DNA from: a virus
Lineage: Duplodnaviria; Caudoviricetes
Virus record (IMG/VR): IMGVR_UViG_3300044822_000018
Location: 1-51,152 of that record
Length of the DNA stretch: 51,152 nucleotides
Strand: one strand, 5' to 3'
Position numbers and translations under genes: made by a program. Positions 258-50,285 of this stretch are shown here, one piece after another (within the stretch, counting starts at the first letter, position 1; the number at the start of each line of letters is the position of its first letter). A model generated the notes under the pieces. That model searched no databases. It worked only from the letters and a program-made list of their open reading frames with translations, and was not told where the DNA came from.

Positions 258-2210
258 TTAGTGCTTGCCGTTCATAGCGTGTTGCTGTTGATTATTTTGA
301 GGATGCTGACCTGGCGGCGGCTGTCCGTGGGCTGCCGCCTGTTGAGCGGCCTGTTGTTGTTTTTGCAAGATTTGCTCTAGCTGCTCTTTGGTGCCGATCA
401 ACGTATCTACGTCTGAGTAGCCTGCGGATTCCAAAACTTTGCGCGTTATGGCGAACATTTTCATTGGGTCCTGCATGACTAACGGGTTTTGCATAAGAAG
501 CTGATAGATGCCCATATCTTGATTTAGCCGCGATTGGGCATCCACAGGGTCAGTTGCACCCGAAACGTCGAGCCGATAGTCCAATCCCATAATTTCAGGT
601 GAAATGGTAAAAAGCTGGCCTTGATTGTCCGTACCTTGAATGTCAGCATTGGTGTATTGTAGTTTGAGCCGGTGGACGAAGTTGAACAATGCGCGACACG
701 AAACTCTAAACCTAATGGCAACCAAGTCATTTCGCGTACCTGTTGAAGCGGCTTGGGTTTTTACTTCGCTTGCGCTGCGTCGTCCTGAGCTTTGCGCGCC
801 GATCATCGGCTGTCCTTGACCCGTAACTTGCGTGACATAGTTCATAAGAAGGCTTTCTTCTTGCGAACTTGCCAGGGGAATGTCGCTGAGTTGAATGACT
901 TCGGGTTTAGCCGTACCTTCCCACATGACGCCCGGTGCCCAAGTCTGTTCTCCGTCATGCAGTTCGGTGCCTGTTGGGATAAATAACGGCGGATCAATGC
1001 GTAAGTCAACGGCGTTGTTACGGTCGTTGTTCATTTTGTTGATTTGACCAACAAGCGCCGTCAAACGCTCGATAAACGAATATCCGGCAAACTGATCTTC
1101 GCGCGGAGCCCACGAATACTCAAAAAACGGGCGTTCGTGCGGATTTGGGTAGTCATACGGCATCCAACCCAACAGTTCTTGAGTCAAATAGTCGTAATAA
1201 AATATATTCTCTTCGCAAATGCCGTCGCCGTCCATATCGTATTCGCGAGAGTGTATTCTGTAAACCAGTACTGGCCCGCGATTACGAAAGAACGGCGAAT
1301 TGTGACTTCCTTGAGACAAGTATGGATTAACCTGTTTGCCGGTCGTCTTGTCGTAAACCCCTTGAATGTCAGTAGATATGCCGTCTTGTGACCCACTTTC
1401 AACGTAAGAAAGAGAACGCTCCACGGCGTCAGCCCAAAGCGTGCCCGCCTCGATCATTTCTAACAGTTCGCCCTCGTACAAAAACATTTTGCGCCACACG
1501 GCAGCGGCTTCGTTGATGCTAGGCGCTGTTGCGGGCAATACGCCAAAGTCTTTTAGTTTAAGAGCCTGAAGCCTAACGTCATCGTACAGCGTTTCTTCGA
1601 TCTGTTTTTCGACGTATTCGTAACGCTGCTGCATATTATCCTGGTCGATAACAGGCACGCCGTCGTTTTGAACAGGTTGGCGAATCTTAACTGTTCGACG
1701 TGTCTTTTTGCGAACCCAAACGGCTTCCATTATGCTTGTACCGCCGTGAAAGCTCTTATTCAGCCAGGAGATAAGTTCTTCAAACCAAGTATCGCTGCCG
1801 CGTTGGCGGACTAATTCGGTGTTGTAATACCGTTCTATCAGATAAGCATGGGGCTGCGCGTCTTGCGTGTTACCAGACACGATAAAAAAACGCGGTACTA
1901 ACGTGCGCGCCGCAATATACGCCAGGGCAGTTTCTAGTTGGGCCGGAATGATCGGCACGCAAATATTTGAAGCATCGTCCCACGGCTCGTTTTGCTGTGG
2001 GTCTAGCTCCATCTCAAACAGTTTTTCCCAATCATCGAGATTACGGTCAAGAGCGGCACGCGCGGCTATGCCAGCGATCATGCCGTTCATCAAGTCGGTA
2101 CTCAACAGTTGGCGCTCGTCCAACGAAAGTTTGCGCTTGGGCGAAGCATAGCTGATTTGCGGGTCATCTGGTTGGATCGTGCTGGTTGTCACGATCTTGG
2201 GTTTTGCCAT
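258..2210 (-). CDS. portal protein (P22-like)
   Basis: About 650 aa downstream of TerL; RPFFEYSWAPREDQFAGYSF and Q-rich C-terminal tail typical of podoviral portals; start placed at MAKPK (2210). Confidence 0.85.
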   Translation of the reverse strand: MAKPKIVTTSTIQPDDPQISYASPKRKLSLDERQLLSTDLMNGMIAGIAARAALDRNLDDWEKLFEMELDPQQNEPWDDASNICVPIIPAQLETALAYIAARTLVPRFFIVSGNTQDAQPHAYLIERYYNTELVRQRGSDTWFEELISWLNKSFHGGTSIMEAVWVRKKTRRTVKIRQPVQNDGVPVIDQDNMQQRYEYVEKQIEETLYDDVRLQALKLKDFGVLPATAPSINEAAAVWRKMFLYEGELLEMIEAGTLWADAVERSLSYVESGSQDGISTDIQGVYDKTTGKQVNPYLSQGSHNSPFFRNRGPVLVYRIHSREYDMDGDGICEENIFYYDYLTQELLGWMPYDYPNPHERPFFEYSWAPREDQFAGYSFIERLTALVGQINKMNNDRNNAVDLRIDPPLFIPTGTELHDGEQTWAPGVMWEGTAKPEVIQLSDIPLASSQEESLLMNYVTQVTGQGQPMIGAQSSGRRSASEVKTQAASTGTRNDLVAIRFRVSCRALFNFVHRLKLQYTNADIQGTDNQGQLFTISPEIMGLDYRLDVSGATDPVDAQSRLNQDMGIYQLLMQNPLVMQDPMKMFAITRKVLESAGYSDVDTLIGTKEQLEQILQKQQQAAQQAAAHGQPPPGQHPQNNQQQHAMNGKH

Positions 2211-2217
2211 CGCCGCT

Positions 2218-2246
2218 AGTATACGACAGAAGCCGCCTGTTTCCAA
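2218..2246 (-). promoter_or_regulatory. putative sigma70 promoter for a leaderless portal mRNA
   Basis: TTGGAA-17 nt-TATACT, then 7 nt, then ATG (2210); no Shine-Dalgarno; overlaps an 8-bp stem GAAGCCGC/GCGGCTTC (2229-2254). Confidence 0.45.
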
Positions 2247-2279
2247 GCGGCTTCCAGATTAGCCAGCACCGGCTAATTC

Positions 2280-2474
2280 TTAGGCTTTAGGGACTTTTGC
2301 GCCTTTGTAATGCAGTTGCGTGTTCAAGTGTCCCGACGTTTGACGATGCCCGAGTCCGTAAATGCCCATGTTCGGCACTTTGTTTTTACCTGGTTTCATG
2401 GTTGACGGAGCCACAGAAGTGCCTTTGCCGAACATTTTGGCGGTTTTAACCTTGTGGCCTTTCATCTTCTCCAC
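2280..2474 (-). CDS. small Lys-rich basic protein
   Basis: 64 aa, K/G/M-rich, tightly packed with neighbours. Confidence 0.65.
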   Translation of the reverse strand: MEKMKGHKVKTAKMFGKGTSVAPSTMKPGKNKVPNMGIYGLGHRQTSGHLNTQLHYKGAKVPKA

Positions 2475-2475
2475 G

Positions 2476-2661
2476 CTACTGGCCCATCAATTCGCGCAGT
2501 TTTTTGCTGGCCTGCGACGGGCGCTTGTAGCCACCGCCTTGGTTCATCTGCGCCGACAAACCCGCTTTGACGCTGCCGGTAAGTTTTGAGCCCTGGCCCA
2601 TTTTAACAGCCAAAGAACCAACATGGCTGTCACCGACTTTTTTGTTGTTGATTCCGGTCAC
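2476..2661 (-). CDS. small basic protein
   Basis: 61 aa, GGGAG RBS before GTG, K/G/S-rich. Confidence 0.65.
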   Translation of the reverse strand: MTGINNKKVGDSHVGSLAVKMGQGSKLTGSVKAGLSAQMNQGGGYKRPSQASKKLRELMGQ

Positions 2662-2714
2662 GTTGTCTCCCTATCATCCCGAAAAAGCCGTCTAGCGGCG
2701 ACACACAGAGCATA

Positions 2715-4552: not shown

Positions 4553-4553
4553 C

Positions 4554-6601: not shown

Positions 6602-7149
6602 TCGGCCAAGCCCAAATCTTCTTCAACGGGAACAGGCGCAACAGGCATCGTGTCGATGCGCTGTAACTGCGGCGAATTGGGCAACGGCGTTGATATATCC
6701 GCCGCGATGCGCTGCATTTTCTGAGAATGAATATACGCCGGATCGTTTTCAGAGATTTCATCGACGATGCGCTCGACGAGCGGACGCGCGGCGCGCAGCG
6801 AGCCCGTCGTGAACGCCGTCGCCACTTTCGAGGGTTCGTTAAGCGCTTTGGCATACGCGCGCATGGGCGTGACTTTAACCAGGGCATCGCGGTCGGTACG
6901 CGCCGAGAACTCGCCGTAGCGTTGCAGGCCGTCAATCATGGCGTTTGTGGCTACGACGCTGACCGGCGTCGAATCAGCCTCAGCAATATCGCACAGGCGC
7001 TCAAAAACTTCGGGCAACACGCGCAATTTTAGCTCGACGCGGGCTTTTGCGGCCCGATTGAGCTTCATCGCGCGCTTACGCAGTTCGATAAGCTCTTGGT
7101 TTTCGGCCAACTTGGGCCGTCCGCGCTTTTTTACGGGCGGCGTCACCAT
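6598..7149 (-). CDS. DNA-binding protein (AT-hook-like plus ribbon-helix-helix)
   Basis: KKRGRPK, then LKLRVLPEVFERLCDIAEADSTPVSVVATNAM. Confidence 0.6.
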   Translation of the reverse strand: MVTPPVKKRGRPKLAENQELIELRKRAMKLNRAAKARVELKLRVLPEVFERLCDIAEADSTPVSVVATNAMIDGLQRYGEFSARTDRDALVKVTPMRAYAKALNEPSKVATAFTTGSLRAARPLVERIVDEISENDPAYIHSQKMQRIAADISTPLPNSPQLQRIDTMPVAPVPVEEDLGLAE

Positions 7150-14913: not shown

Positions 14914-15047
14914 ACGTACACAACGCTGTGAGCGACTACGCGGAAGAACCGGCGATATTGCACGATGCGCTTTGCGAGATGGTTGACGGTTCGCCTTCGT
15001 GCAGTTGCGAAGTGATACCCGATGATTGGGCCCAGTTTTATGAGTGA
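14910..15047 (+). CDS. 45-aa acidic micro-protein (not in ORF track)
   Basis: MNVHNAVSDYAEEPAILHDALCEMVDGSPSCSCEVIPDDWAQFYE*; GGAGG RBS; overlaps the next ATG. Confidence 0.55.
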   Translation: MNVHNAVSDYAEEPAILHDALCEMVDGSPSCSCEVIPDDWAQFYE

Positions 15048-16557
15048 CACAATTACCGAATGGCGGCTTGGTAAGAAGCACGGTAACACCTACGAACATC
15101 GTGTGACGTTGACTCAATTAGGGTTTCGCTTTGATGGCGAAACAAAAGAATGGGTTACTTGGAACGAAGAACAGTTCGCGCAGGGTTACTTCTTAGTGAC
15201 CGGCCAACCCTATTCGGCCCGCACAGACGGGCAGAAAGATGGAGAAGTGAACGCAACCGAAAGCGAAATTGATTTAACTGGTAACGGACGCGGCTTTACC
15301 GACCCGCAATTAAATGCGGCGTTAAAGGCGTTAGGCGGTGGCTCGGTCGGGTTTGACTATGCCCGCGTATCCAAAGCCGGGCGTATCGCATACGGCGTTG
15401 AGAAGTATGGCTCGGACGCCCTAATGCGGGCCATTCGGTTCGTCATCGAAACCGAAGCCAAAGAAGGCCCAGAAGCGCCGCGCAAGCCTTCGCAGGCAGA
15501 TCGGCTCAACGAGCTAGGCAAGGCTCCTGTAGCGCCTGCGAAGGCCCCAAGTGAGGCTCCGCCTGTTCCGCCCGCCGACGACGTGACTTCGGCGGTAGCG
15601 GCATTGCGCAAGCTCATGGGAACGGGCGTGCTGGACGAAGCCCGCGTCCGAGCTATTGCCGACGAGGCGGTGAAAGACGGCGTCGGTGCCTTCGCTCAAG
15701 TCATCGACGATGCGGTAAAGGCCGCCGTCGGTCGGCCCAAGATTCTGGAAGTAAGGTCGCCGGGCGCGACTGTTCAAGTTAAGGGCGCACATCGTGACTT
15801 TGAGCGGGTTATGAAGTGTGTCGGCGCGGGGTTAAACGTGCTGATGACCGGGCCTAGCGGTTGCGGCAAAAGCGTAATAGCCAAACACGTCGCGCAAGGG
15901 TTAAATCGTCCGTTTCATTCAGAGTCTTTCTCCGGTGGCAAGACCGAATCGGCAATTACTGCCCGCCTGTTGCCAAGCAAAGGCGGGGACTTCATTCCCG
16001 TTGATAGTCAATGGCTCCACGCTTACGCGAATGGCTATGTCATCTTCGCCGACGAGTTAGACGCTGCCGATGCGAACGTCTGGATAGTCGCAAACGAGAT
16101 GCTTGGCTCAGACGGGTTTCATTGCGAGATTCGGGCTATCGGCAAAGATGGCACCGCCCGTGACGAGGCTGTTTGGGTTAAACGGCATCCCAACACGGTC
16201 TTGATTGGCGCAATGAATACGTTCGGCACAGGGCCGAACATGATGTTCCAAGGCCGTAACGCACTAGACGCAGCATCGTTAGATCGGTGGTTGTTGCTCG
16301 AAGTTAGCTATGACGAGGCTATCGACCGTGCTTACGAAGTTGACGATCAAACGCGCAATTTTGTAAACTGGGTCCTCGCTGCCCGTAAAATCGTTCTTGA
16401 ACGTGGCATGAAGCGCGTGGTGAGTCACCGGATGACGGCCAAAGGTTGCGCGCTTCTTGCTGCGGGATTCAAGCAAAAAGAAGTTCGCGAGATGCTTCTC
16501 GTCGGTTGGACGAAAGACGAAGTACTCCAAGTCAAAGACGCGGATACTCAAAGCTAA
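15040..16557 (+). CDS. MoxR/CbbQ/CobS-like AAA+ ATPase
   Basis: Walker A GPSGCGKS, Walker B IFADELD, RHPN..LIGAMNT, LDAASLDRW; small N-terminal GNTY..LGFRFDGETKEW domain. Confidence 0.85.
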   Translation: MSDTITEWRLGKKHGNTYEHRVTLTQLGFRFDGETKEWVTWNEEQFAQGYFLVTGQPYSARTDGQKDGEVNATESEIDLTGNGRGFTDPQLNAALKALGGGSVGFDYARVSKAGRIAYGVEKYGSDALMRAIRFVIETEAKEGPEAPRKPSQADRLNELGKAPVAPAKAPSEAPPVPPADDVTSAVAALRKLMGTGVLDEARVRAIADEAVKDGVGAFAQVIDDAVKAAVGRPKILEVRSPGATVQVKGAHRDFERVMKCVGAGLNVLMTGPSGCGKSVIAKHVAQGLNRPFHSESFSGGKTESAITARLLPSKGGDFIPVDSQWLHAYANGYVIFADELDAADANVWIVANEMLGSDGFHCEIRAIGKDGTARDEAVWVKRHPNTVLIGAMNTFGTGPNMMFQGRNALDAASLDRWLLLEVSYDEAIDRAYEVDDQTRNFVNWVLAARKIVLERGMKRVVSHRMTAKGCALLAAGFKQKEVREMLLVGWTKDEVLQVKDADTQS

Positions 16558-17420
16558 TGGCTAAGGCTAAAAAGCTAGTTTTTAATTATGACTCTTACGC
16601 TGCCGTGGTGGATGCGACTCTGCATCCACCCTCGGTAGCCGCTAGTAACAAAGCCGATTGGCAAAAGCGGGTCAACGGTGGTGACCCGGACAATTGCAGA
16701 GCCAAGTGGTATGGTTGGAACAATACCAAGGTGCCCGCCATCGACAAGTTAGCGGACTTTTTTCTAGTCAAAGGCTGGGATGCGGGCGTTAAAAAGATGC
16801 GCGCTTGCATGAACCAAATCAAAGCGCCAGAAGTTATGAGCGTTCGTCGCCGCCAAACTTGGCGCGAAGAAGGCGCAGAATTGTCCCGCGAACGGTTATA
16901 CGCGGGTTACGAGCAATTCTGGCGTGGTCGCGTCACGCAAGGCGTCAACATTCCCAAGCGCATACGTTTGGTGTTTGACGTTTGCGTAAATAGCGCCGTC
17001 ATGTCAGAAGACATGTTTTGGGTAGGTGCTGCGGGTGTGACGTTGGCCGAGGCACTAACCGAAGCCGGTCATTCGGTTGAGTTAGTCGCTTCGGTTCTTA
17101 TTTCAGACTACGCAACCGATACAACCTACAGAGTTAACACGATAGTCAAAGCCTTCGACCAACCGTTTAACTATTCGACGACGCTGGCTATTACGGGTCA
17201 TGCCGCGTACTTCCGGCAAGTTATACTCTGCCATCAACGGGCGTATACGCCTACTTTGTGGGCCGGTTGCGGTTCGCCGAGGCGGTTTTCTATAGATCGC
17301 GTAGATTCGACAGGTGTCGAGCAAATCTTAATCTCTCACATGACTAGCGCCGAACAGGCAAACAGTTATGTGGCCGAGACTATAGCCGAGTTAGAAACTC
17401 CGGCCAATGCGTTCGCGTAA
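16557..17420 (+). CDS. VWA-like partner of the AAA+ ATPase
   Basis: TAATG coupling; IRLVFDVCVNS...LAEALTEAGHSVEL resembles a degenerate VWA fold. Confidence 0.6.
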   Translation: MAKAKKLVFNYDSYAAVVDATLHPPSVAASNKADWQKRVNGGDPDNCRAKWYGWNNTKVPAIDKLADFFLVKGWDAGVKKMRACMNQIKAPEVMSVRRRQTWREEGAELSRERLYAGYEQFWRGRVTQGVNIPKRIRLVFDVCVNSAVMSEDMFWVGAAGVTLAEALTEAGHSVELVASVLISDYATDTTYRVNTIVKAFDQPFNYSTTLAITGHAAYFRQVILCHQRAYTPTLWAGCGSPRRFSIDRVDSTGVEQILISHMTSAEQANSYVAETIAELETPANAFA

Positions 17421-17651: not shown

Positions 17652-19349
17652 TTGCAAGCAGAAAATAATCTTAACCGCCGTAGCGCGCAGATAAATCTCG
17701 CGCAATATCCGACAGATTGTTTGCTAACTAGAGTCTTGCCCGGAGTCAAGCAGCCAACAGCCAAAAAAGGCGAACAGGTAATTTATACGCCTGTTAAAGA
17801 GTTTGTCTTGGGTTTTGGCGAGAATTGCGGGCTGGGTTTAGCAGGCAAGTTTATATGCGTTGACATAGATCGGCCTGCTGATCCTGTAGCAGCCGAATAT
17901 TCGGCGCGTCTGCCTGTTACGTATACTGTCAAGACGCCTAGAGGCTGGCACTATTTGTTTCGTGTTCCGTCGGGTTGGACCGGCGCGAAGAAAAAAATCG
18001 CCTGTGGCGAGATTCTCACGTCGGGCTATATCGTGGGACCCGGAAGCTGGATTGAGCCGACTGAAGGGCATCCTGGGGGCGAATACCGGCTCGTAAACTT
18101 CTGCGATCCCGTGCCCGCCCCCGATTGGCTCTTAGACTTAGCGCGGCGTGACCCGGAGCCTAGTTTAGACGTAACGCGGACGGGGACGGAGCGCGACCGC
18201 ATCCTCGATGGTGAGCGCGACGATGCGTTGACGGCACTCGCCGGTTCGATGCGCCGCCAGGGCTATAGCGAAGATGCGATGCGCGCCATGTTGAGCGCCA
18301 TCGTTGAGAGCGGCGTCGTCGAGCAGCCGCCTGGGCGCGAGGTGACCGAGCGCGACGTAGCGCGCATCGCGCGTTCGATGGCGCAGCATCAAACAGGCGG
18401 CAGCACAGTTCCCGAGATTGCACTGTTGCCCGACAAGTGGACGACCGGCGCAGACGTATCGCGTGATTTTGAAAAACTAGAATGGGTCTTGCCAGGGTTT
18501 ATCCCGGCTGTTGGTTTAACCGTGTTATACGGCGATGGCAAGATCGGTAAAAGCTCTTGGGCGTCGTGGCTTGCGTCAGCCGTATCGCGGACAGGCAAAA
18601 AAGTCATCATGGTCCCGTCAGGCGAAGAAACTTTTAAGCAATTTGTTCAACGTGCTAGACTTACTGACTGTGAAGATTCCCTGTTTGTCTGTTGGCCTGG
18701 CGAAGCGCGCTTTGTTTTGCCCAAGTCCGTGCGTGAATTAAATCATGCAATAGAACTGCTCAAAGACGTAGGTTTAATTTACATAGATGCGTTGTACTCT
18801 CACTTTGGGGACACTCCGGGATTACACGCCGGAGAACGTGCGCGCTATAATTTGCAGGCTTTGGCGCAACTTGCGTTAGACCGACGTATCGCGGTACTTG
18901 GCACGATCCACGAAAACGCCTCGGGCGGCCTGTTGGGTTCGCGCGAGATGCGAAACGTAGCGCGCAGCTTGATTCATGCCAAACGCAAACCCGGAGGCGA
19001 CTTCACAATATGGTCGGACGGTTCCAATGGCTTTTCTAGCGATTTCGGTGTTAGTTTTCCAGGTGTTGCTGTGCCTGTCCTGGATAGTAATAATCGGCCT
19101 GTTGTGTTTACTGACTTATTTGGTCAGAATCATCCGCAAGCTGTGTGGGTTCTCAGACTTGGCGAAAAAATCGGTGCCCCCGATACTATAACAGTTGACG
19201 ACATCTCTAAAACGCCTGTTGAGTTAATCCGCGAATATTTAATCTTAAATCCCGGCGCAAGCAACGCCCAGATCGCCGACGCTCTGAGCATGGGCAAGTC
19301 CACTGTCGATAGGCACGCGCGCGAGGCTAGGTCTACGCTTGCTAACTAA
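17652..19349 (+). CDS. bifunctional primase-polymerase fused to PriCT and RecA-type (AAA_25-like) helicase
   Basis: CVDID, KTPRGWHYLF, GYIVGPGS (Prim-Pol); GERDDALTALAG (PriCT); YGDGKIGKS Walker A; C-terminal HTH. Confidence 0.88.
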   Translation: MQAENNLNRRSAQINLAQYPTDCLLTRVLPGVKQPTAKKGEQVIYTPVKEFVLGFGENCGLGLAGKFICVDIDRPADPVAAEYSARLPVTYTVKTPRGWHYLFRVPSGWTGAKKKIACGEILTSGYIVGPGSWIEPTEGHPGGEYRLVNFCDPVPAPDWLLDLARRDPEPSLDVTRTGTERDRILDGERDDALTALAGSMRRQGYSEDAMRAMLSAIVESGVVEQPPGREVTERDVARIARSMAQHQTGGSTVPEIALLPDKWTTGADVSRDFEKLEWVLPGFIPAVGLTVLYGDGKIGKSSWASWLASAVSRTGKKVIMVPSGEETFKQFVQRARLTDCEDSLFVCWPGEARFVLPKSVRELNHAIELLKDVGLIYIDALYSHFGDTPGLHAGERARYNLQALAQLALDRRIAVLGTIHENASGGLLGSREMRNVARSLIHAKRKPGGDFTIWSDGSNGFSSDFGVSFPGVAVPVLDSNNRPVVFTDLFGQNHPQAVWVLRLGEKIGAPDTITVDDISKTPVELIREYLILNPGASNAQIADALSMGKSTVDRHAREARSTLAN

Positions 19350-20355: not shown

Positions 20356-21752
20356 CGCCGAACTATCCGCATCAAGACTACGAGATTAAAAACTTCGGGC
20401 GCGCACCAAAGCGCGCCCTTTTTTGGTCGCCGCGAACAGGCAAGACACGCGCTGCGATACAGAGCGCACTCGAAGCTCGCGTCTATGACTTGCTTGTGAT
20501 AGCGCCGCTGTCAACGTGCCCTCAATGGGCCACCGCGCTCGAAGAGCATGGCCTGCCGGTCGTGCGCGGCTATGCCATGAATCGCGGACCGTTGCTCGCG
20601 GCCTTGCGTAAGCGCACAGGCGTCGTCGTGCTGTCCTGGCGACGCATCTCGGCCAAGAACCCCGAAGATCGCAAGCGCGGACGCCCAAGCAGCATCGCAG
20701 AAAGATTACTTGCCTGCAACTTTACTGGTATAATATGCGACGAATCGCACAACATGGCGAGCCCTAGCGCCGATCAAGCAAGATTAGCCAGGCGCTTGTG
20801 CTGGCAAGCTCCGTGGGTTCGCCTGTTAACAGGCACACCGGCAGCGAATCACTATGGCTCTTTGTGGGGGCAACTAAGCGCCTTAGACAAAGACGCATTT
20901 GGCGGAAGCTATGAAAAATTTGCTCAGAGATACTTGGTTCGCGATACGATGTTCCCTTCGCGTGTTCTCGGCCATTTACCGACTGTCGAGAACGAACTGC
21001 GGCCAAAAATGCTCCCATACATATCTATCGTCAGACGGGATGATGTTTTCGGGCCAGATAAATACGAAGAAAACGTCAGAATCGTGGATTTACCCCCCAA
21101 CGCTATTAGAATATATCGAACGCTTGCGACAAAGTGGTTGATCGACGACCTGTTGCAAGTTGACGCTACGCAAATACTCAAGCGCCTTGTGCGTTTGCAA
21201 CAGGTAGCAGCAGGCTTCGTCAAAGACGATGACGGCTTTATTCACAACCTGCATACGGCAAAAATCGACGCCGTGACCGAAGATTTAGCTAAGATCACCG
21301 AGAGCGACGAAAAAGCCGTCGTCTTTCACAGGTTTAGATGGGAAGGCGAACAGTTAATCAAGCGCGCCAAAACTCTAGGGGTGCCAGTCTATGAGATTAA
21401 CGGCGATACGCCTGTCGCCGAGCGCAGTATTTGCCTGTCAGAGATGGCAAAACCAGGCGCTAAGATCGCTGTCGTGCAAACCAAGTCTGGCGGAGTTGGT
21501 ATTAGTTTTGCAGAAGTACCGTACCAGTTGGTACTCTCTCAGTCTTTCAGTTTTACAGACGAAGAACAGGCACATGATCGCACATATAAGCCGCACACCG
21601 CGCGCTTTGTGACGTATTACAGAACTAGCGGAACCGTTGACGAATTTATCGCATCGGTGCTAAAATCCAAGCAGAGTTTGCGCACCGCCGTAACGCGCGC
21701 AGATTTAGAAGCGATGGCGTTCGGCACAATCAAAAAGATGAGGATGAAGTGA
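20352..21752 (+). CDS. SNF2-like SF2 helicase
   Basis: SPRTGKT, ICDESH, LLTGTP, SGGVGISF, EQAHDR. Confidence 0.9.
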   Translation: MTPNYPHQDYEIKNFGRAPKRALFWSPRTGKTRAAIQSALEARVYDLLVIAPLSTCPQWATALEEHGLPVVRGYAMNRGPLLAALRKRTGVVVLSWRRISAKNPEDRKRGRPSSIAERLLACNFTGIICDESHNMASPSADQARLARRLCWQAPWVRLLTGTPAANHYGSLWGQLSALDKDAFGGSYEKFAQRYLVRDTMFPSRVLGHLPTVENELRPKMLPYISIVRRDDVFGPDKYEENVRIVDLPPNAIRIYRTLATKWLIDDLLQVDATQILKRLVRLQQVAAGFVKDDDGFIHNLHTAKIDAVTEDLAKITESDEKAVVFHRFRWEGEQLIKRAKTLGVPVYEINGDTPVAERSICLSEMAKPGAKIAVVQTKSGGVGISFAEVPYQLVLSQSFSFTDEEQAHDRTYKPHTARFVTYYRTSGTVDEFIASVLKSKQSLRTAVTRADLEAMAFGTIKKMRMK

Positions 21753-26004: not shown

Positions 26005-26045
26005 AAAACCCCTTGACGGTTTAAGAGTGCCGTCAAGGGGTTTTT
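26005..26045 (+). terminator. intrinsic terminator (possibly bidirectional)
   Basis: AAAACCCCTTGACGG-loop-CCGTCAAGGGGTTTTT. Confidence 0.85.
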
Positions 26046-26047
26046 GT

Positions 26048-26076
26048 TTGACACTTTTGTAATTTTATGGTATCAT
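26048..26076 (+). promoter_or_regulatory. sigma70 promoter with extended -10
   Basis: TTGACA-17 nt-TATCAT preceded by TG; AGGAGG RBS follows. Confidence 0.85.
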
Positions 26077-26091
26077 TGGGCAGGAGGATAT

Positions 26092-26937
26092 ATGAACGAT
26101 TTTGTTATTAGTGCGTCCGCTCTAAGCGCGTTCAAGCGTTGCCCGAAAAGCTATTACTTCGGCTACGAACAGGCGCTAACAGTCATCGAACAAAAAGAGG
26201 CTCTAACCAACGGCATCGACTTTCACACGTATGCCGCCGACTATGCGATCTATCGGCGCGATGGCGTGGAGCCTGACTTCGGCAAGTACGACAACGACAA
26301 GATGTACGAAGTATTCAACGCATGGGTTAGGCATCGCGGCGCGACAGAGTTTGACAACATGGCCGAGATTTTGCACGTCGAAGAACCCATGTTCACCGAA
26401 CTGTTGCCCGGCGTTCAACTCCGCACGACGTTAGACTTAGTTTATCGCGACAAAAACGGCTGGATCGTAATTCGCGACTACAAGACGTTCGCAAAGATGC
26501 CGTCGCTCGACGCTAGTCTCGATTTTCAAGCGCGCATTTACATCGCTGCGATCATGCGTAAGTACCAGACTGAAAACGTCAAGTTTGAACACGTCTACGT
26601 TCGGCGCGACCTGTTCCACGAAGGCAAACAGTCTCACGTCGCCTGGACGCCCGAAGAATCTTACGTCTACGAAGAAATCGTTATCCCGCGCGCCGAGGCC
26701 GATCGGCTCTGGAAAGAAACGCAATACGTGGCGGGTATTATTCTAGACGCAACAGGTACGAACATCTTTTACAGAGTTGACCTTAAAGGCACGTCGCCGT
26801 TTACGTGCGGGTCGTGCTTTTACAAGACGGTCTGTGCAGCCGAGAATCAGAACGGCGGCATGGATGGCCTAGACCTCGAAGAACTAGACTATCGCGTCAA
26901 CAGAAACGAGCGCAATCAACAAGAGATACCAGCATGA
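26092..26937 (+). CDS. PD-(D/E)xK Cas4/RecB-like exonuclease
   Basis: SASALSAFKRCPK, LDLVY, IRDYKT, QARIY, CGSCFYKTVC; ATG after AGGAGG. Confidence 0.88.
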   Translation: MNDFVISASALSAFKRCPKSYYFGYEQALTVIEQKEALTNGIDFHTYAADYAIYRRDGVEPDFGKYDNDKMYEVFNAWVRHRGATEFDNMAEILHVEEPMFTELLPGVQLRTTLDLVYRDKNGWIVIRDYKTFAKMPSLDASLDFQARIYIAAIMRKYQTENVKFEHVYVRRDLFHEGKQSHVAWTPEESYVYEEIVIPRAEADRLWKETQYVAGIILDATGTNIFYRVDLKGTSPFTCGSCFYKTVCAAENQNGGMDGLDLEELDYRVNRNERNQQEIPA

Positions 26938-27230
26938 ACGACGACACGATCCGCGTAAAGAACGCGCTTGCGCTCAAACTCGCGCTTGAAAATGCGTACC
27001 ACGCGCAACCCGACGTTACCGAGATATACGACTTGGTGAACTGCGCTTTTGACGCCCTCATCGCAGCCACGCCGCAAGAACAGCCGCCCGAGATTAGTCC
27101 ATGTGACGATTGTGGTTACTGCAATAATCCAACTTCGCCCGAGGCGCACAATCACGGGCCTTGCTTCAACTGCTACTGCCCTTCACATAAAGCCCATTAT
27201 ATAGCGCCCGAGAGCGAGGCAAAGCCATGA
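26934..27230 (+). CDS. Cys-rich hypothetical protein
   Basis: MNDDTIRV...CDDCGYC...CFNCYC; ATGA overlaps. Confidence 0.6.
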   Translation: MNDDTIRVKNALALKLALENAYHAQPDVTEIYDLVNCAFDALIAATPQEQPPEISPCDDCGYCNNPTSPEAHNHGPCFNCYCPSHKAHYIAPESEAKP

Positions 27231-27505
27231 ACGACGAACAGGCTATTTTTAGACGCAGACCTGTTTGGCGCTGTGTAAACTGCTCGCATTTAAGTCTACG
27301 TGTTGACGAAAGTCAACTGTGCGACGCCTGTTCTGCCAGGGCCAATTTACTGCGCGGAATAAAATGCTCGCTGCTCTTGATCGCGATGTACGTGTCCGTC
27401 ATCGTCGGACTACTCAATTTAGACACTGGCGTAGTGACGTTGTTTTGTGCTATGATTTTTGGCATGAGCGTAATATATTTTAACTCACTACTCACACACA
27501 AATGA
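27227..27505 (+). CDS. zinc-finger membrane protein
   Basis: CVNC...CDAC followed by two hydrophobic segments. Confidence 0.6.
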   Translation: MNDEQAIFRRRPVWRCVNCSHLSLRVDESQLCDACSARANLLRGIKCSLLLIAMYVSVIVGLLNLDTGVVTLFCAMIFGMSVIYFNSLLTHK

Positions 27506-28290
27506 TCTACTTGCTCGACGCCGATCAGAACGGCTCAGACTCGATTCAGCACCTTGTTGACTCCGGCAAAATTAAATACTTGCCTATGTCAACTTTTCAA
27601 GTGTTCGACAAAACAGTTAAAGAACTGTTGCCTGTTGTGGGACCTGATGACTTAGTCATCATCGACACAATAGGCTCGCTTTTTGAAACTACGCGAGGGG
27701 ACGCAAAACTTGGAACTGACGTATCGGTTGACCTATGGACGCTACGGGGAAAGTACCTAGACGGGGACAAGAACTATCTCACCGTCTACTCTTTGGCAGG
27801 TGATACGATTATACGTCGGATTAAAAATCTCAGGGCAAGGGGTGCGAGAATTATTACTACGTCGCATGAGTCCGAGAAACAAGACCCTACGGACTTGATG
27901 AAAAAGCGCGCACCGGCTCTGAGTGACGCGCTCTATAAGTCAATCATGGCGAACACGTCCGACGTTGTGCGCCTGTCGGAAATTATCGACCCAATCTTAA
28001 ACGAGGATGGTAGTGTCAAGGTACCGAGTGGGACACGAATCTTACAACTCCGTAAAACGGAGGAAGCCGTCGCTAAGTACCACGTCTTGCCGGAGGTTTC
28101 TGACCGAATCAAAAGGTTATTGCGACTACCTTCGAGAAGTGGTTTGTATACTTACTACGCGCATGTCCAAAAACGTCCAACCTGGTTACACATATACGGA
28201 CCGCCAGGAGTAGGTAAAACCGCGCTTTCTGCTTCAGAAGCCGAAACTCCAAACCCACAACACACAACACCAAATCAAGAAAGCGACTAA
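27502..28290 (+). CDS. Sak4/AAA_24-like P-loop ATPase, apparently circularly permuted
   Basis: N-terminal YLLDAD, Walker B LVIIDTIG, IITTSHE; Walker A HIYGPPGVGKT at the C-terminus; lies between Cas4-like and SSB-like genes. Confidence 0.75.
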   Translation: MIYLLDADQNGSDSIQHLVDSGKIKYLPMSTFQVFDKTVKELLPVVGPDDLVIIDTIGSLFETTRGDAKLGTDVSVDLWTLRGKYLDGDKNYLTVYSLAGDTIIRRIKNLRARGARIITTSHESEKQDPTDLMKKRAPALSDALYKSIMANTSDVVRLSEIIDPILNEDGSVKVPSGTRILQLRKTEEAVAKYHVLPEVSDRIKRLLRLPSRSGLYTYYAHVQKRPTWLHIYGPPGVGKTALSASEAETPNPQHTTPNQESD

Positions 28291-40514: not shown

Positions 40515-40854
40515 AATACACCGTGCAAGTTGATCCTGTGTTACCGCCTGAAACAGACACGCTAAAGCCTGCCGTGTTTGGCGGTCCGTATGCCTCGGGC
40601 GTTAAGCTAAACCCAGACGGACTTGTGCCAGGGGTGCCAATCGAAAGCTGCAACGAGACAAGTGCGTTTGGAAACACTTCTGGAAAAGCAACGACAGCCG
40701 CCGCAGAAGCATCGCCCGCAACGCCTTGAACTTGGCCCCATTGAAAAGTATACGGCGTCGAACCCGTGCCGATAAAAGTCAGCGAGTTGTTGCCTGTTAC
40801 GGGTTCATAACTACCTGGCGCGAACGGCAACGGTGTGAAATAGCTCATTCCCAT
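40495..40854 (-). CDS. gp53-like / H-lectin-like fibre-tip domain protein
   Basis: FQWG...VAFPEVFPNA...GFSV...VYYVAIGY. Confidence 0.7.
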   Translation of the reverse strand: MGMSYFTPLPFAPGSYEPVTGNNSLTFIGTGSTPYTFQWGQVQGVAGDASAAAVVAFPEVFPNALVSLQLSIGTPGTSPSGFSLTPEAYGPPNTAGFSVSVSGGNTGSTCTVYYVAIGY

Positions 40855-41690
40855 TCTCCCGTATAGCCGTATGCCTTGTGGTTGCCTTTAATATAAAAGC
40901 TGCGATTTGTACGCACTTTGGGCGCGCGGGCATCGTCGCCTGTTCTACGCCTGTTCCAAGTGCGTAAATTACGCATTTCTTTTTCGTATTCGCCTGCCGC
41001 ATAGTTGCGCGCCTCGGCGGCTTTGTCTGAATCGTCAGAAAATTTAGCGTACTCGCACATCTTCCAGACGATAGCGTTCACAAAGTTTATCGGAAAATAC
41101 GTCGCGTCTGTTAGCAAAACCAAATCCGGCACAACAGGCACGCCATACATCGTGATAGTGCCCGCGCCACCGGGCGCTGGCTGTATGCCGAGATAGCCGC
41201 CGTCCCAGTAATACTCCGGCGCAAAGCCGCCATACCAGGGCGAGCCCGGTCCTGCCGCGCCAATGCCCTGGTAGGGAAAAATCGACGGAGCCGCGCTGAT
41301 CCAAGCCGGAGCGAACTGACCGGTGACACCGCCAGGTATTTCTACGCCTGTGGCTGTCGGCAGCATCGTGCCGCTCGAATCGTTAACGCCGATTTGCTGC
41401 CCAGACATAATTTTTTTAGTCGTGCGCGGGCACAGTTGGCCGTTAACAAATACGGCGTCTGTTGTGATTACAACAGGCGAGATTTGATACGTTGCCTGGT
41501 TAGGAATAATAGTTATGTCCCAACGCGCTTGCGGAAACAGCACGTCGCGGTTGACGGCTTTGCAAGCGTCGTTTGCGAAACTAATCATGGAATTGTCAGA
41601 CCAACGACCGTTTGACGATGGGTCGTTAAGACGCAAACGCGCCTTGCTAACTAAGTCCGAGCATTGAAGATTCGCGCCGATAACAGGCAT
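40845..41690 (-). CDS. head-tail adaptor (tail tubular A-like)
   Basis: LVSKARLRLND...WSDNSMISFANDA...YLGIQPAP...FVNAIVWKMCEYA. Confidence 0.75.
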   Translation of the reverse strand: MPVIGANLQCSDLVSKARLRLNDPSSNGRWSDNSMISFANDACKAVNRDVLFPQARWDITIIPNQATYQISPVVITTDAVFVNGQLCPRTTKKIMSGQQIGVNDSSGTMLPTATGVEIPGGVTGQFAPAWISAAPSIFPYQGIGAAGPGSPWYGGFAPEYYWDGGYLGIQPAPGGAGTITMYGVPVVPDLVLLTDATYFPINFVNAIVWKMCEYAKFSDDSDKAAEARNYAAGEYEKEMRNLRTWNRRRTGDDARAPKVRTNRSFYIKGNHKAYGYTGEWE

Positions 41691-45964: not shown

Positions 45965-46457
45965 AACACACCACCTGCACACCGTTTGTCGGCGCTGATC
46001 CACCAGTTAAAATAGTCGCAACGGCGCGCACGGCAACAAGCGGCCAGTTTACGCGCAAAATCGGTGCCGTTCCCGAAAGCATTGGGTTTGCCATGACGCC
46101 TGTTGAGCCTTGTTCGCTAGGTCCGGGCAAAATAAACCACGATGTTAGTAAAGCCGTTGGGCTGGACCCTTTGCCTGTTGGCGTGATATTGACGCCGTTG
46201 ACGTTTTGAGTTGGTTGACCTACGGGCTGACCCGCCACGTAAATAGCGGGGTCTAGCGTGCCATACACAGTCACAGAATAGCCGACTGTTTGCGCGCCAG
46301 GGCCAATAAACTGAAACGCAAAGTCTTTAAAGCCGATAGCCTCGGTCATTTGAATACCCGAGTCTAACGCTGCGCCTGTCGATGCAGGTAAAAGGCTAAG
46401 TAATAGCTCGCCGCCGCGCAGCCCAACGCGGTTTAGTCCCGCGCCTGACGCGCCCAT
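45951..46457 (-). CDS. virion-module hypothetical protein
   Basis: 168 aa, beta-rich, tightly packed after capsid genes. Confidence 0.65.
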   Translation of the reverse strand: MGASGAGLNRVGLRGGELLLSLLPASTGAALDSGIQMTEAIGFKDFAFQFIGPGAQTVGYSVTVYGTLDPAIYVAGQPVGQPTQNVNGVNITPTGKGSSPTALLTSWFILPGPSEQGSTGVMANPMLSGTAPILRVNWPLVAVRAVATILTGGSAPTNGVQVVCFAVS

Positions 46458-46458
46458 T

Positions 46459-47112: not shown

Positions 47113-47115
47113 TAT

Positions 47116-48069: not shown

Positions 48070-48072
48070 GAT

Positions 48073-48999: not shown

Positions 49000-49030
49000 T
49001 AAAAAGCTCCCAGATTTAACATTTGAGAGC

Positions 49031-49060
49031 AGCTTATCATGCTATAACAGTTAGCGTCAA
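49031..49060 (-). promoter_or_regulatory. putative promoter for capsid genes
   Basis: TTGACG-18 nt-TAAGCT with TG extension; GGGAG RBS downstream. Confidence 0.45.
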
Positions 49061-49071
49061 CAGATACACGT

Positions 49072-49329
49072 TTAACTCGATGGTGTATTTTGTCCGTTTA
49101 ACTCTTTGACAACTGCTTGATGCGCCCGATAATACGGCCCAACACCAAAAATTAAGCCAACAAGTCCAGCCCACCAATTACTAGCAAAAAAATGCAAAGC
49201 GTCAAGCGGCGTGTTGCATAGCCCCATACCCCACCCAACAACAAACATGCCCAGAATCAAACTTTGCAAGCCGAATAGCGCCGATACGGCATAAGATTTA
49301 AGCGTCTGGTATACAACAGGCGGCATCAT
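49072..49329 (-). CDS. putative holin
   Basis: 85 aa, two hydrophobic segments, Met-Met start overlapping the lysozyme stop (ATGA). Confidence 0.55.
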   Translation of the reverse strand: MMPPVVYQTLKSYAVSALFGLQSLILGMFVVGWGMGLCNTPLDALHFFASNWWAGLVGLIFGVGPYYRAHQAVVKELNGQNTPSS

Positions 49330-49760
49330 GGCGGCGTTAAAAATAAGGCTTTTTCGGCTGCGCGCCTGTTGACCAGGCCCTGAAGTACGCGCCCGCCTGC
49401 ATAAACCCAACGACTAAATTCGTTAGCGGCTAAATCAAACTTGCGCTGATTTACATAGAACATGAGCGTAGAATCGGCCAACGCCGTAATGCCTAAGTTA
49501 TACGCAAAACTAACAAGCGCGCTAAATTGATTAGGATTTAGCACAACGTCAGTTTCGTTTTGGACTTGGTTGGCGACTTCTTGTAACTGTTCGACGAGCC
49601 ATACTTCGGCTTGGGTTTGCGTGCATGTTTGACCTGGCACAACGCCGGAAGTGCGCCCGTAGCCTATCGTCCAGACGCCTACAGGATCGGCGTAGGCGAC
49701 CAGGCTACAGCCCTCAAAACGCTTGACTAGCTCTAAGCCCGCGCTGTTGATGCTAGGCAT
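49326..49760 (-). CDS. endolysin, GH24 lysozyme
   Basis: FEGCSLVAYADPVGVWTIGYG (E-8x-D-5x-T triad), QFSALVSFAYNLG, GLVNRRAAEKALF. Confidence 0.95.
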   Translation of the reverse strand: MPSINSAGLELVKRFEGCSLVAYADPVGVWTIGYGRTSGVVPGQTCTQTQAEVWLVEQLQEVANQVQNETDVVLNPNQFSALVSFAYNLGITALADSTLMFYVNQRKFDLAANEFSRWVYAGGRVLQGLVNRRAAEKALFLTPP

Positions 49761-50285
49761 TTATTTGTCTTTAATTTGCATCGTACCTTGGTACGCGCCA
49801 TGCGACTCGCCTTCAATCTGGTCGCTAAATTCAACGGCTTGGTTTGCAAGCCGCGAATAGGCGTAATCTTCGTAGGCCGTGTAATAGCGTTCGACGTACT
49901 TCGCTGGCATTTCAAACAACGCTTGATCTTCCCACACGACGTAATTGCCGCTAGGAGTTTCTAAGTCGATGATTGCTGCGAGCGCGCAGTTCGGATCGAC
50001 TTCGTCAAATTCAACAGGTCGCATATGTCCTGCGCGAACCATCGAGCCTGTTTTTGGCTGCGTGCGAACGCGCCACACGTATTTAGAATTTGGATTGGGC
50101 TTTTTGAGAATCTTTTCCGGCGACCCTAGCAGAAGCGTTGCATCTTCGCCAGGGTATTTCTTGCCAATATACGGCGCGGCGCTAATGCGTCCGCCGTTGG
50201 GCGTCGTCACTTTGATGCCACGTTGCATACGGGCCGAATGATCGGCGATAAGGGCCTGTCGGGTGATTTCTGCTGCGTCTGCCAT
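49761..50285 (-). CDS. head-module hypothetical protein
   Basis: 174 aa, AGGAG RBS, follows the scaffold gene. Confidence 0.7.
   Translation of the reverse strand: MADAAEITRQALIADHSARMQRGIKVTTPNGGRISAAPYIGKKYPGEDATLLLGSPEKILKKPNPNSKYVWRVRTQPKTGSMVRAGHMRPVEFDEVDPNCALAAIIDLETPSGNYVVWEDQALFEMPAKYVERYYTAYEDYAYSRLANQAVEFSDQIEGESHGAYQGTMQIKDK

What the first reader, a model, noticed from the sequence alone, without database searches (positions are those of the whole stretch)
337..50053. Genome-wide iterated heptamer GCCTGTT/AACAGGC: about 110 copies vs about 6 expected
Seen in sequence: by hand I count roughly 74 GCCTGTT plus 39 AACAGGC, about one per 450 bp. Uniform expectation is 2x51,025/4^7 = 6.2. 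Examples: 337, 349, 969, 2235, 6631/6640, 10203/10218, 24008/24036, 34649/34657, 40938/40949, and a head-to-head palindrome GCCTGTTAACAGGC at 20821. It occurs in both arms, on both strands, in non-coding DNA and in all six frames (Gln-Ala, Thr-Gly, Asn-Arg using AGG, Pro-Val, Ala-Cys, Leu-Leu/Phe), so one peptide motif cannot explain it. One-off variants ACCTGTT and GCCTGTC also look frequent, and the preceding base is usually C or T. Inference: a DNA-level signal written through the coding sequence. Candidates are a Chi-like anti-nuclease/recombination site, a HIP1- or uptake-sequence-like host motif, a priming site for the phage Prim-Pol, or a binding lattice for a phage protein that coats or shields the genome. 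I saw no methyltransferase gene that would explain it.
Basis: partly seen in the sequence, partly recalled or inferred. Interest (0 to 1): 0.88.

Follow-up and report, generated by a model that had tools for sequence, protein, structure and literature searches.

The report
Selected 8-letter DNA word saturating a phage
An uncultured peat phage carries about 110 copies of the DNA word (C/T)GCCTGTT, on both strands and written through its genes, and a distantly related phage has built up the same word independently, so some still-unidentified protein must read it.

Summary
GCCTGTT/AACAGGC occurs 113 times (74 on +, 39 on -) in this 51-kb phage genome, against 7.6 +/- 2.4 in dinucleotide shuffles and 22.3 +/- 3.9 in synonymous-codon shuffles.

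- **The word.** It is YGCCTGTT (98 of 113 copies), with random flanks. It is enriched in both orientations and all six frames. Spacing is Poisson-like, with no clustering.
- **How it is written.** Codon-pair choice and amino-acid choice both contribute.
- **Relatives.** The same word saturates a distant relative (75 copies in 46.9 kb) and probably a third phage (5 in 4.7 kb). It is absent from 18 other family members, including the sister lineages. None of the 15 sites in the PolA genes is homologous, so the word accumulated independently.
- **What does not track it.** No methyltransferase was found. Neither the Prim-Pol nor the SNF2 tree follows the word. Unlike known Chi-rich phages, there is no polarity and no end clustering. 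None of 462 sampled bacterial genomes is dense in the word.
- **One lead.** The only gene found in both word-rich phages and in none of the 18 others is a VWA-like DUF7192 protein, which in the window sits next to a MoxR/CobS-like ATPase.

My best guess (about 0.33) is a host-supplied, orientation-independent "spare or repair this DNA" signal. The scan has found similar unexplained phage words before, on other DNA.

The parts
337..50052 (.). 113 dispersed copies of GCCTGTT (74 on +, 39 on -). The true word is YGCCTGTT (98 of 113). Mean spacing is 453 bp.
   Evidence: One search lists all coordinates. One search gives the logo, with flanks of about 0 bits. Searches give the nulls. Searches give the spacing.
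20821..20834 (.). Head-to-head pair GCCTGTTAACAGGC, inside the SNF2 helicase gene.
337..355 (+). Close same-strand pair of the word. Similar pairs lie at 6631-6646 (-), 10203-10224 (+), 34649-34664 (+) and 40938-40955 (+).
   Evidence: Nine gaps are <=30 bp, against 7.2 expected by chance.
15022..16557 (+). MoxR/CobS-like AAA_5 ATPase of 511 aa, with an N-terminal extension of about 220 aa of unknown fold. It is translationally coupled to the next gene.
   Evidence: PF07728, E 2e-10; phrog_249, E 2e-40. No homologue in G001-G005. The atlas search on residues 1-235 was uninformative.
16557..17420 (+). DUF7192 protein of 287 aa with a VWA-like fold (NorD-like). It is the only gene shared by the two word-rich phages and absent from all 18 word-free relatives.
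   Evidence: PF23822, E 1.4e-21; homologue at L342:147-1265, E 9e-27; 0 of 18 relatives, with a positive control in G000; fold model and PDB matches.
17652..19349 (+). Prim-Pol / PriCT-1 / AAA_25 helicase fusion, the candidate reader in the priming-site hypothesis.
   Evidence: In the tree its sister is the Prim-Pol of word-free L017.
26044..28290 (+). The phage's own recombination genes: a PD-(D/E)XK nuclease (26044-26937) and an AAA_24/Sak4-like ATPase (27502-28290).

Best explanation
YGCCTGTT is a recognition word kept at about one copy per 450 bp by selection on the DNA itself, and it works in either orientation.

The same 8-mer accumulated independently in non-sister lineages of one phage family, and no core phage gene tracks it. 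My leading candidate is a host DNA-processing enzyme (a helicase-nuclease or a similar surveillance or repair machine) shared by the hosts of these phages.

On this view the word marks the phage DNA as "stop degrading / repair by recombination". That is Chi-like in purpose, but the word is needed in both orientations because breaks, for example from restriction, can occur anywhere in a replicating genome whose physical ends are not known.

- **Shown:** the selection, the symmetry, the random placement and the independent accumulation.
For: **DNA-level selection.** 113 copies against 22.3 +/- 3.9 under synonymous shuffling. Codon-pair choice is biased, and the dipeptides TG, PV and QA are 1.3-1.5 times over expectation.

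**Orientation does not matter.** Both orientations are enriched in every frame. The synonymous null already predicts a 76:24 split by sense strand, against 63:37 observed. The orientation runs test gives z -1.06.

**No positional function.** The gap CV is 0.94 against 0.99 +/- 0.09 at random. Per-strand CVs of 0.89-1.21 are also within the random range, in both phages.

**Protein-like recognition profile.** Variants at the central positions are not enriched (for example GCCTATT 2 against 5.1 expected). Variants at the outer positions are 4-5 times enriched.

**The same word elsewhere.** G001 has 63 copies against 6 for the control, and 62 of 63 carry a pyrimidine at -1. The joined second phage P2 has 75 copies in 46.9 kb. 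L335 has 5 of 5 Y-form copies in 4.7 kb.

**Patchy distribution.**
- The PolA sister L334 has 0 copies in 5.1 kb.
- G015, the PolA sister of the second phage, has 4 copies in 54.7 kb.
- G002-G005 have 3-9 copies each.
- In the PolA alignment, 0 of 15 sites share a column.

**No core gene tracks it.** The Prim-Pol and SNF2 trees do not follow the word.

**Heavy restriction pressure.** In the window, 34 of 55 testable 6-bp palindromes have O/E <=0.25. In the second phage it is 18 of 39. These two have the lowest overall O/E of the six genomes compared (0.37 and 0.51), and their avoidance profiles correlate best with each other (r 0.45).

**Precedent.** Phages are known to accumulate a host word, Chi (passages of PMC12315714).
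Against: **No host identified.** None of 301 Acidobacteriota, 151 Alphaproteobacteria or 10 other bacterial genomes exceeds about 0.2 YGCCTGTT (or 0.3 GCCTGTT) per kb, against 1.9 per kb in the phage.

**G+C mismatch.** The three word-rich phages have 53%, 63% and 67% G+C, which fits a single shared host poorly.

**Unlike known Chi-rich phages.** Those are strongly polar (20:3 and 32:0), clustered at one end, and mostly lack Rec genes. This phage is none of these, and it encodes a PD-(D/E)XK nuclease and an AAA_24 protein.

**Seen only in one family.** I found the word only inside this phage family. A complete mixed-orientation scan of IMG/VR gave 30 hits, none of them dense. That scan would catch only roughly 10-20% of dense genomes; this figure is my own estimate, not a measurement.

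**A phage gene does co-occur with the word.** DUF7192 is in 2 of 2 word-rich phages and 0 of 18 word-free ones, which favours a phage-borne reader.
Confidence: 0.33

Rival explanations
1. The reader is phage-encoded and travels on an exchangeable accessory module. The candidate is the MoxR/CobS-like AAA_5 ATPase (with its uncharacterised 220-aa N-terminal extension) together with its VWA-like DUF7192 partner, which would bind or act at YGCCTGTT along the genome.
For: - DUF7192 is the only solid gene shared exclusively by the two word-rich phages (E 9e-27).
- It is absent from all 18 word-free family records, 11 of which are >=90% complete. The search rings in G000 as a positive control.
- It lies just upstream of the Prim-Pol gene in both phages.
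- The ATPase and DUF7192 genes are coupled, the start codon of one overlapping the stop of the other at 16557.
Against: - The DUF7192 model (pLDDT 92) matches NorD VWA domains in NorQ-NorD complexes (Foldseek E 1e-5, but TM only 0.23-0.27). That points to a chaperone-type MoxR-VWA pair, which has no known DNA-sequence reading.
- The family is large: 3019 clusters at E<=0.001. Two distant DUF7192-bearing phage loci, L444 and L445, have no dense word.
- Whether the second phage also has the ATPase is unknown. About 3.3 kb of its contig was not available to me.
- The association was found after the fact among about 60 genes, and it could simply reflect a shared gene pool or host.
Confidence: 0.2
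2. The word is a priming-site lattice. The Prim-Pol/helicase fusion would start primers only on an 8-nt template word, so both strands need a site roughly every 0.7-1.3 kb.
For: - The phage NrS-1 Prim-Pol depends on an 8-nt recognition sequence (passages of PMC7102993).
- The window encodes a Prim-Pol/PriCT-1/AAA_25 fusion.
- Per-strand mean spacing of 691 and 1312 bp is about Okazaki-fragment size.
- The word is present on both strands across the whole genome.
Against: - The window's Prim-Pol is sister (100*) to that of L017, which has 1 Y-form copy in 22 kb.
- The second phage's Prim-Pol groups with those of word-free G005, G003 and L003.
- The two word-rich Prim-Pols are only about 33% identical.
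- NrS-1 itself has only two copies of its word.
- Spacing is not more even than random on either strand.
Confidence: 0.08
3. The word is produced by a mutational or repair drive (HIP1-like, or like very-short-patch repair). A sequence-specific modification or mismatch-correction activity, from host or phage, would convert near-cognate sites into the word, so its abundance would need no function.
For: - One-off variants at the outer positions are 4-5 times enriched, as expected if sites keep arising and decaying.
- An earlier scan note (e1-5356755, unchecked) tied another phage word to a phage methyltransferase.
- Independent accumulation in separate lineages is what a shared drive would produce.
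Against: - No methyltransferase, Vsr-like or glycosylase-specific domain was found beyond the UDG-like domain of PolA, in the 50 ORFs scanned.
- No single precursor variant is clearly depleted.
- Several sites were made by amino-acid replacements, not just silent changes.
- The word is not a palindrome and contains no familiar methylation core. That last point is from my own recall, not from a tool.
Confidence: 0.12
4. The word is a classical host Chi site, or a host uptake or architecture word that the phage merely mirrors.
For: The length (7-8 nt), non-palindromic nature and over-representation are typical of Chi, DUS/USS and KOPS. Chi-rich phages exist.
Against: - There is no polarity beyond what coding constraint explains, and no end clustering.
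- The density is about four times that of the Chi-rich phage LLS (1 per 1.86 kb).
- There is no extended flank consensus.
- No dense bacterial genome turned up among 462 sampled.
- No integrase was seen among the 50 Pfam-scanned ORFs, so this may be a lytic phage, and my own reasoning is that an uptake-driven drive would not reach a lytic phage.
Confidence: 0.07

Closest known systems
Chi-rich phages (LLS, MD8 and other lambdoid phages without Rec modules; Zheng et al. 2025, PMC12315714; I read passages only)
   Same: A short non-palindromic word accumulated far above chance in a phage genome by selection on the DNA. One-off variants are also frequent. The word is written through coding sequence.
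   Different: Chi-rich phages show strong polarity (20:3, 32:0), clustering at one end, a density of about 1 per 1.9 kb, no Rec genes of their own, and a known reader (RecBCD).
DNA uptake sequences (DUS of Neisseriaceae, USS of Pasteurellaceae); features recalled, not taken from a call
   Same: Orientation-independent, genome-wide, roughly one or more per kb, with a strict core and more tolerant outer positions.
   Different: Uptake sequences belong to competent bacteria, extend to 9-12 nt with flank preferences, and often form inverted pairs at terminators. Here the carrier is a phage, the word is 8 nt with random flanks, and there is only one abutting inverted pair.
HIP1 and other highly iterated palindromes of cyanobacteria; features recalled, not taken from a call
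   Same: Extreme iteration of one octamer through coding DNA, achieved by codon choice.
   Different: HIP1 is palindromic, chromosome-wide in the host, and linked to methyltransferases. This word is asymmetric, no methyltransferase was found, and this genome strongly avoids palindromes.
The 8-nt recognition sequence of the phage NrS-1 Prim-Pol (PMC7102993; I read passages only)
   Same: A phage Prim-Pol/helicase fusion that needs an 8-nt template word.
   Different: NrS-1 has two copies, which look like an origin. Here there are 113 copies, and the Prim-Pol phylogeny does not follow the word.
Other phage "signature words" noted earlier in this scan (GAGTCGT, TCCAGAC, GGAAAWT, GGCTCTA); these are unchecked AI notes
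   Different: This is a different word. Here it is additionally shown to be identical in non-sister lineages while absent from their sisters. It is neither evenly spaced nor linked to a methyltransferase.

Membership tests
Chi recombination hotspot (as accumulated in phages) | Strong orientation polarity relative to the DNA end or replication direction | tested here: not met
   74:39 by strand. By sense strand the split is 63:37, against 76:24 expected from coding constraint alone. Both orientations are enriched in all frames. Runs test z -1.06.
Chi recombination hotspot (as accumulated in phages) | Clustering toward the end where the nuclease enters | tested here: not met
   3-10 copies in every 3-kb bin; gap CV 0.94; largest gap 2357 bp against 2408 expected. 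The physical ends are unknown, because the record ends in a 127-bp assembly overlap.
Chi recombination hotspot (as accumulated in phages) | Recognised by the host RecBCD/AddAB, and enriched and skewed in the host chromosome | tested here: inconclusive
   The host is unknown. 462 bacterial genomes reach at most about 0.2-0.3 copies per kb. Skew could not be measured.
Chi recombination hotspot (as accumulated in phages) | The phage lacks its own recombination module | tested here: not met
   PD-(D/E)XK nuclease at 26044-26937 and AAA_24 protein at 27502-28290. Whether the phage has an anti-RecBCD function is unknown.
DNA uptake sequence (DUS/USS) | Extended 9-12 nt consensus with flank preferences | tested here: not met
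   Information content is confined to positions -1 to +6. The flanks carry <=0.15 bit.
DNA uptake sequence (DUS/USS) | Dense in the genome of a competent host | tested here: inconclusive
   No dense genome was found in the samples. The host is unknown.
HIP1-type iterated palindrome | Palindromic word | tested here: not met
   GCCTGTT differs from its reverse complement. 6-bp palindromes are strongly avoided.
HIP1-type iterated palindrome | A cognate DNA methyltransferase | tested here: not met
   No methyltransferase domain in the 50 ORFs scanned against Pfam. About 10 very small ORFs were not scanned.
Primase / Prim-Pol recognition site | The word co-varies with the primase lineage | tested here: not met
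   The window's Prim-Pol is sister to that of word-free L017. The second phage's Prim-Pol groups with word-free G005, G003 and L003.
Primase / Prim-Pol recognition site | Primers start on the word | not testable with these tools
   This needs priming assays.
Dispersed repressor sites (mycobacteriophage stoperators; features recalled) | Intergenic location and a fixed orientation relative to transcription | tested here: not met
   109 of 113 copies lie in coding sequence, and 4 are intergenic where 5.2 would be expected. There is no orientation rule.
MoxR-VWA (NorQ/NorD, CobS/CobT-like) pair, for genes 15022-17420 | AAA_5 ATPase next to a VWA-domain partner | tested here: met
   PF07728 at E 2e-10 and phrog_249 at E 2e-40. 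The DUF7192 model (pLDDT 92.1) has NorD VWA chains as its best PDB matches at E 1e-5, though TM is only 0.23-0.27.

The most novel reading that the evidence does not exclude
These phages use a previously undescribed, orientation-free genome-marking system. The 8-letter word, written about every 450 bp, would be read by a dedicated machine, either the mobile MoxR-like ATPase/VWA pair or an unknown host surveillance enzyme, to tell phage DNA from other DNA for protection, repair or selective degradation of the host chromosome.
Probability: 0.2. Interest if true: 0.85.

Novelty: new variant of a known kind. Interest (0 to 1): 0.62.

Why it matters
Short words that organisms select across a whole genome (Chi, uptake sequences, HIP1) have each revealed a DNA-reading machine. 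Here a lytic-type phage pays a measurable coding cost, through biased codon pairs and changed amino acids, to keep about 110 copies of one word.

The identical word arose independently in a non-sister relative. That makes a specific reader almost unavoidable, and it supplies a natural comparison set for finding it: word-rich phages against their word-free sisters.

With the other signature words seen in this scan, it suggests the phenomenon is common in uncultured phages and not yet described. My five literature searches found no description of this word.

Tried and rejected
**Order-5 Markov model.** It expects 103.9 copies. I rejected it as a test because the word's own 6-mers feed the expectation.

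**Looking for a host or other dense genomes.**
- A same-strand triple-word pattern was scanned over genome contigs and viral contigs. What they returned was collagen-like 9-nt periodic coding repeats, heptamer tandem repeats and chance hits.
- Five bacterial genomes picked from those hits have only 0.18-0.30 GCCTGTT per kb.
- The mixed-orientation triple scan of viral contigs ran to completion with 30 hits. None is dense.
- 301 Acidobacteriota genomes (the tally includes unpublished G167, G039 and G064) and 151 Alphaproteobacteria genomes (includes unpublished G373) contain no dense genome.
- Eremiobacterota and other peat phyla could not be sampled.

**A "second word" in relatives.** GAGAGGT in the second phage, and the top words of G002 and G003, turned out to be local 15-bp or longer tandem arrays, not dispersed words.

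**TGTTAACA palindromes and AACTGTT enrichment.** Both are specific to the window and absent from the second word-rich phage, so they are a separate feature.

**RHH and LuxR proteins as readers.** The RHH genes have homologues in word-free G005. No LuxR homologue exists in the second phage.

**SNF2 helicase as reader.** The window and L335 are sisters on the SNF2 tree, but the second phage is not with them.

**Searches that gave nothing useful.**
- GenBank phages: no DNA match, and TerL hits of at most about 25% identity.
- TerL in IMG/VR: no relatives.
- DUF7192 searches: the two-sequence alignment gave no confirmed loci. The word-indexed protein search found only the query itself. P0123 is not in IMG/VR. 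The cluster look-up gave no names.
- PADLOC and NCBIfam: nothing informative for the ATPase/DUF7192 pair.
- The first structure model, from a two-sequence alignment, was poor (pLDDT 41.5). It was replaced by the 60-sequence model.
- The atlas search on the ATPase N-domain was uninformative.
- Literature searches with the raw word returned only primers and unrelated papers. A concept search found no description of such a phage word.
- The run search found the window only in one peat metagenome run, which may be its own source. That is not evidence of habitat breadth.

**Not used or not available.** Read laying and complex prediction were not used. Supplementary files of the two papers were not seen; the tables of Zheng et al. 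could refine the Chi comparison.

Full report
**What the window is.** The window is a complete phage genome: one contig of 51,152 bp with an exact 127-bp terminal overlap.
- It has SU10-type portal and adaptor proteins, a capsid protein and a lysozyme, and a large terminase.
- Its replication arm encodes a Prim-Pol/PriCT-1/AAA_25 fusion, an SNF2 helicase, a PolA fused to a UDG-like domain, a PD-(D/E)XK nuclease and an AAA_24 ATPase.
- GenBank phages contain nothing close.
- The DNA was found in one peat metagenome run only, which may be its own source.

**Checking the observation.** GCCTGTT occurs 74 times on the + strand and 39 times on the - strand, 113 in all.
- Dinucleotide shuffles give 7.6 +/- 2.4, maximum 13.
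- Markov models of order 0-3 expect 6.5 to 36, and the word ranks first among all 7-mers under orders 1 and 3.
- Shuffling synonymous codons within each gene, which keeps every protein sequence and each gene's codon usage, gives 22.3 +/- 3.9, maximum 32 in 200 shuffles.
- The order-5 model expects 104, but only because the word's own hexamers are its input.
- Aligning the sites shows information only at position -1 (C 58, T 40, A 8, G 7) and in the heptamer. The flanks are random.
- Every single-base variant is far rarer: 2-25 copies against 113.

So the word is YGCCTGTT and is not part of any longer repeat.

**How the word is written.**
- 109 copies lie in genes and 4 in the 4.6% of the genome that is non-coding.
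- All six orientation/frame classes are enriched over the synonymous null, by 2.9- to 11.5-fold.
- Thr-Gly is encoded ACA-GGC in 54 of 151 cases, and Pro-Val is encoded CCT-GTT in 38 of 101. From single-codon usage I calculate about 21 and 7.5 expected.
- The dipeptides TG, PV and QA are themselves 1.3-1.5 times over expectation.
- In PolA, some sites differ from relatives only by synonymous codons. For example, KTG is AAA ACA GGC in the window and AAA ACC GGG in L334. Other sites sit where the amino acids were changed.

This is selection, or a drive, acting on the DNA.

**Geometry.**
- The 74:39 strand bias is not intrinsic. Relative to transcription the split is 63:37, and the coding-constraint null alone predicts 76:24.
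- Orientation runs are random (z -1.06), every 3-kb bin holds 3-10 copies, and gap statistics are Poisson-like: CV 0.94 against 0.99 +/- 0.09, largest gap 2357 bp.
- The same holds for each strand separately, in this phage and in the second one.

There is therefore no polarity, no end clustering, no even spacing and no operator-like clustering.

**Relatives.** PolA homologues define a family of 45-55-kb metagenomic phages. I retrieved 19 family loci from IMG/VR and 30 from metagenomes.
- Only one other phage is saturated with the same word. IMG/VR record G001 has 63 copies against 6 for the reversed control, and 62 of 63 carry a pyrimidine at -1.
- Metagenome locus L342 is the same phage at 100% identity. 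Joined together, the two give 75 copies in 46.9 kb.
- A third, short contig, L335, has 5 copies in 4.7 kb, all in the Y-form.
- Complete relatives G002-G005 have 3-9 copies, and G015 has 4 in 54.7 kb.
- The window's closest available relative, L334 (59% PolA identity), has none in 5.1 kb.
- On the PolA tree the word-rich phages sit in three places, each next to word-free sisters (a quick IQ-TREE search with SH-aLRT support).
- On the SNF2 tree the window and L335 are sisters (96*), so there may be two origins rather than three.
- Of the 15 sites in the three PolA genes, none occupies a homologous column.

The word therefore accumulated independently, after these lineages diverged.

**What does not explain it.**
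- No methyltransferase was found in 50 scanned ORFs.
- The Prim-Pol tree pairs the window with word-free L017, and the second phage with word-free G005, G003 and L003.
- The RHH genes have homologues in word-free G005, and the LuxR gene has none in the second phage.
- The TGTTAACA palindromes and the AACTGTT excess are specific to the window.
- Apparent "own words" of other relatives are local tandem arrays.
- Known Chi-rich phages are polar, end-clustered, four times sparser and mostly lack Rec genes (passages of PMC12315714).
- The NrS-1 Prim-Pol needs an 8-nt word, but that genome has only two copies (passages of PMC7102993).
- No bacterial genome among 301 Acidobacteriota, 151 Alphaproteobacteria and 10 others comes near the phage's density. 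Most peat phyla remain unsampled, and the pattern scans were either truncated or insensitive.

**One positive lead.** An all-ORF comparison found a single solid gene shared by the two word-rich phages and missing from the word-free ones. It is the DUF7192 protein at 16557-17420, which matches L342:147-1265 at E 9e-27.
- The Pfam model rings in the window and in none of 18 word-free family records, 11 of them at least 90% complete.
- With a 60-sequence alignment it folds confidently (pLDDT 92.1). Its best PDB matches are the NorD VWA domain in NorQ-NorD complexes (E 1e-5, TM only 0.23-0.27).
- Its upstream, translationally coupled neighbour is a MoxR/CobS-like AAA_5 ATPase with an unexplained 220-residue N-terminal extension.
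- Such pairs are known as chaperone-type remodelling machines, not DNA readers.
- The family is large (3019 clusters), and two distant DUF7192-bearing phage loci have no dense word.

The association is 2 of 2 against 0 of 18. By my calculation that is a Fisher probability of about 0.005, before correcting for having looked at about 60 genes. It may equally reflect a shared gene pool or host.

**Reading.** The facts are an identical 8-mer, independent accumulation, strand symmetry, random placement, a strict centre with tolerant edges, and no tracking core gene. Together they point to a sequence-specific protein reader that is not part of the vertically inherited phage core.
- I give about 0.33 to a host enzyme, with the word acting as an orientation-free "stop degrading / repair" mark. 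This fits the extreme restriction pressure visible in both word-rich genomes.
- I give about 0.20 to a phage-borne reader on the MoxR-VWA accessory module.
- I give about 0.12 to a modification or repair drive.
- I give about 0.08 to a Prim-Pol priming lattice.
- I give about 0.07 to a classical Chi or uptake word mirrored from the host.
- The remainder goes to something not yet thought of.

A compositional or codon artefact is excluded by the nulls.

**Novelty.** Selected iterated words are a known kind (Chi, USS/DUS, HIP1, Chi-rich phages). This one fails the defining tests of each, and its reader is unknown. Earlier notes in this scan report four other phage words with the same general behaviour on other DNA (unchecked AI notes). 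What is new here is that the identical word appears in non-sister lineages while being absent from their sisters. My literature searches found no description of this word or of such orientation-free dense words in phages.

Noticed in passing
window 1-51152 (whole genome): Extreme avoidance of 6-bp palindromes. 34 of 55 testable hexamer palindromes have O/E <=0.25 (for example GGCGCC 0 against 28 expected, AACGTT 0 against 20, GCCGGC 1 against 25), and overall O/E is 0.37. The second word-rich phage is next (0.51, 18 of 39), while G004 barely avoids any (0.74). This suggests very heavy restriction pressure.
   Followed up: partly
window 15022-17420 (+): A translationally coupled MoxR/CobS-like AAA_5 ATPase (with a 220-aa unknown N-terminal domain) and a DUF7192 protein with a NorD-like VWA fold. 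Within this phage family the pair occurs only in the word-rich members.
   Followed up: partly
L320 (G001) 21-260; L331/L332 (G003) 24164-24539; L323 (G002) 26528-27742: Relatives carry long arrays of 15-bp (or longer) tandem repeats in the replication gene region, possibly origin iterons or repeat-encoded peptides. The window has no such array: TRF finds only three tiny repeats.
   Followed up: partly
window 13876, 13914, 13941, 20824: TGTTAACA-core palindromes cluster in the divergent intergenic region, and AACTGTT/AACAGTT is also enriched (40 copies against about 7 expected). Neither feature is present in the second word-rich phage. The distant DUF7192 locus L444 also shows AACAGTT at 22 against 3.5 expected.
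   Followed up: partly
window, whole genome: GCCAGGG is strongly strand-biased, with 25 copies on + and 4 on - (about 4 expected for both strands together). The cause was not examined.
   Followed up: no
window 1-127 and 51026-51152: An exact 127-bp direct terminal repeat, most simply an assembly overlap of a circular or terminally redundant genome. Cumulative GC skew rises almost monotonically from 5.4 to 48.8 kb.
   Followed up: partly
window 258-2246 and 40845-41690 (-): The portal and adaptor match the SU10 (C3 podovirus) families PF23899 and PF24175, which places the virion module near kuravirus-like phages.
   Followed up: no
viral loci L213, L218, L236, L255, L264, L309, L314: Many unrelated IMG/VR phages carry genes with collagen-like 9-nt periodic repeats that contain GCCTGTT on one strand. 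These dominate any same-strand multi-copy pattern scan.
   Followed up: no
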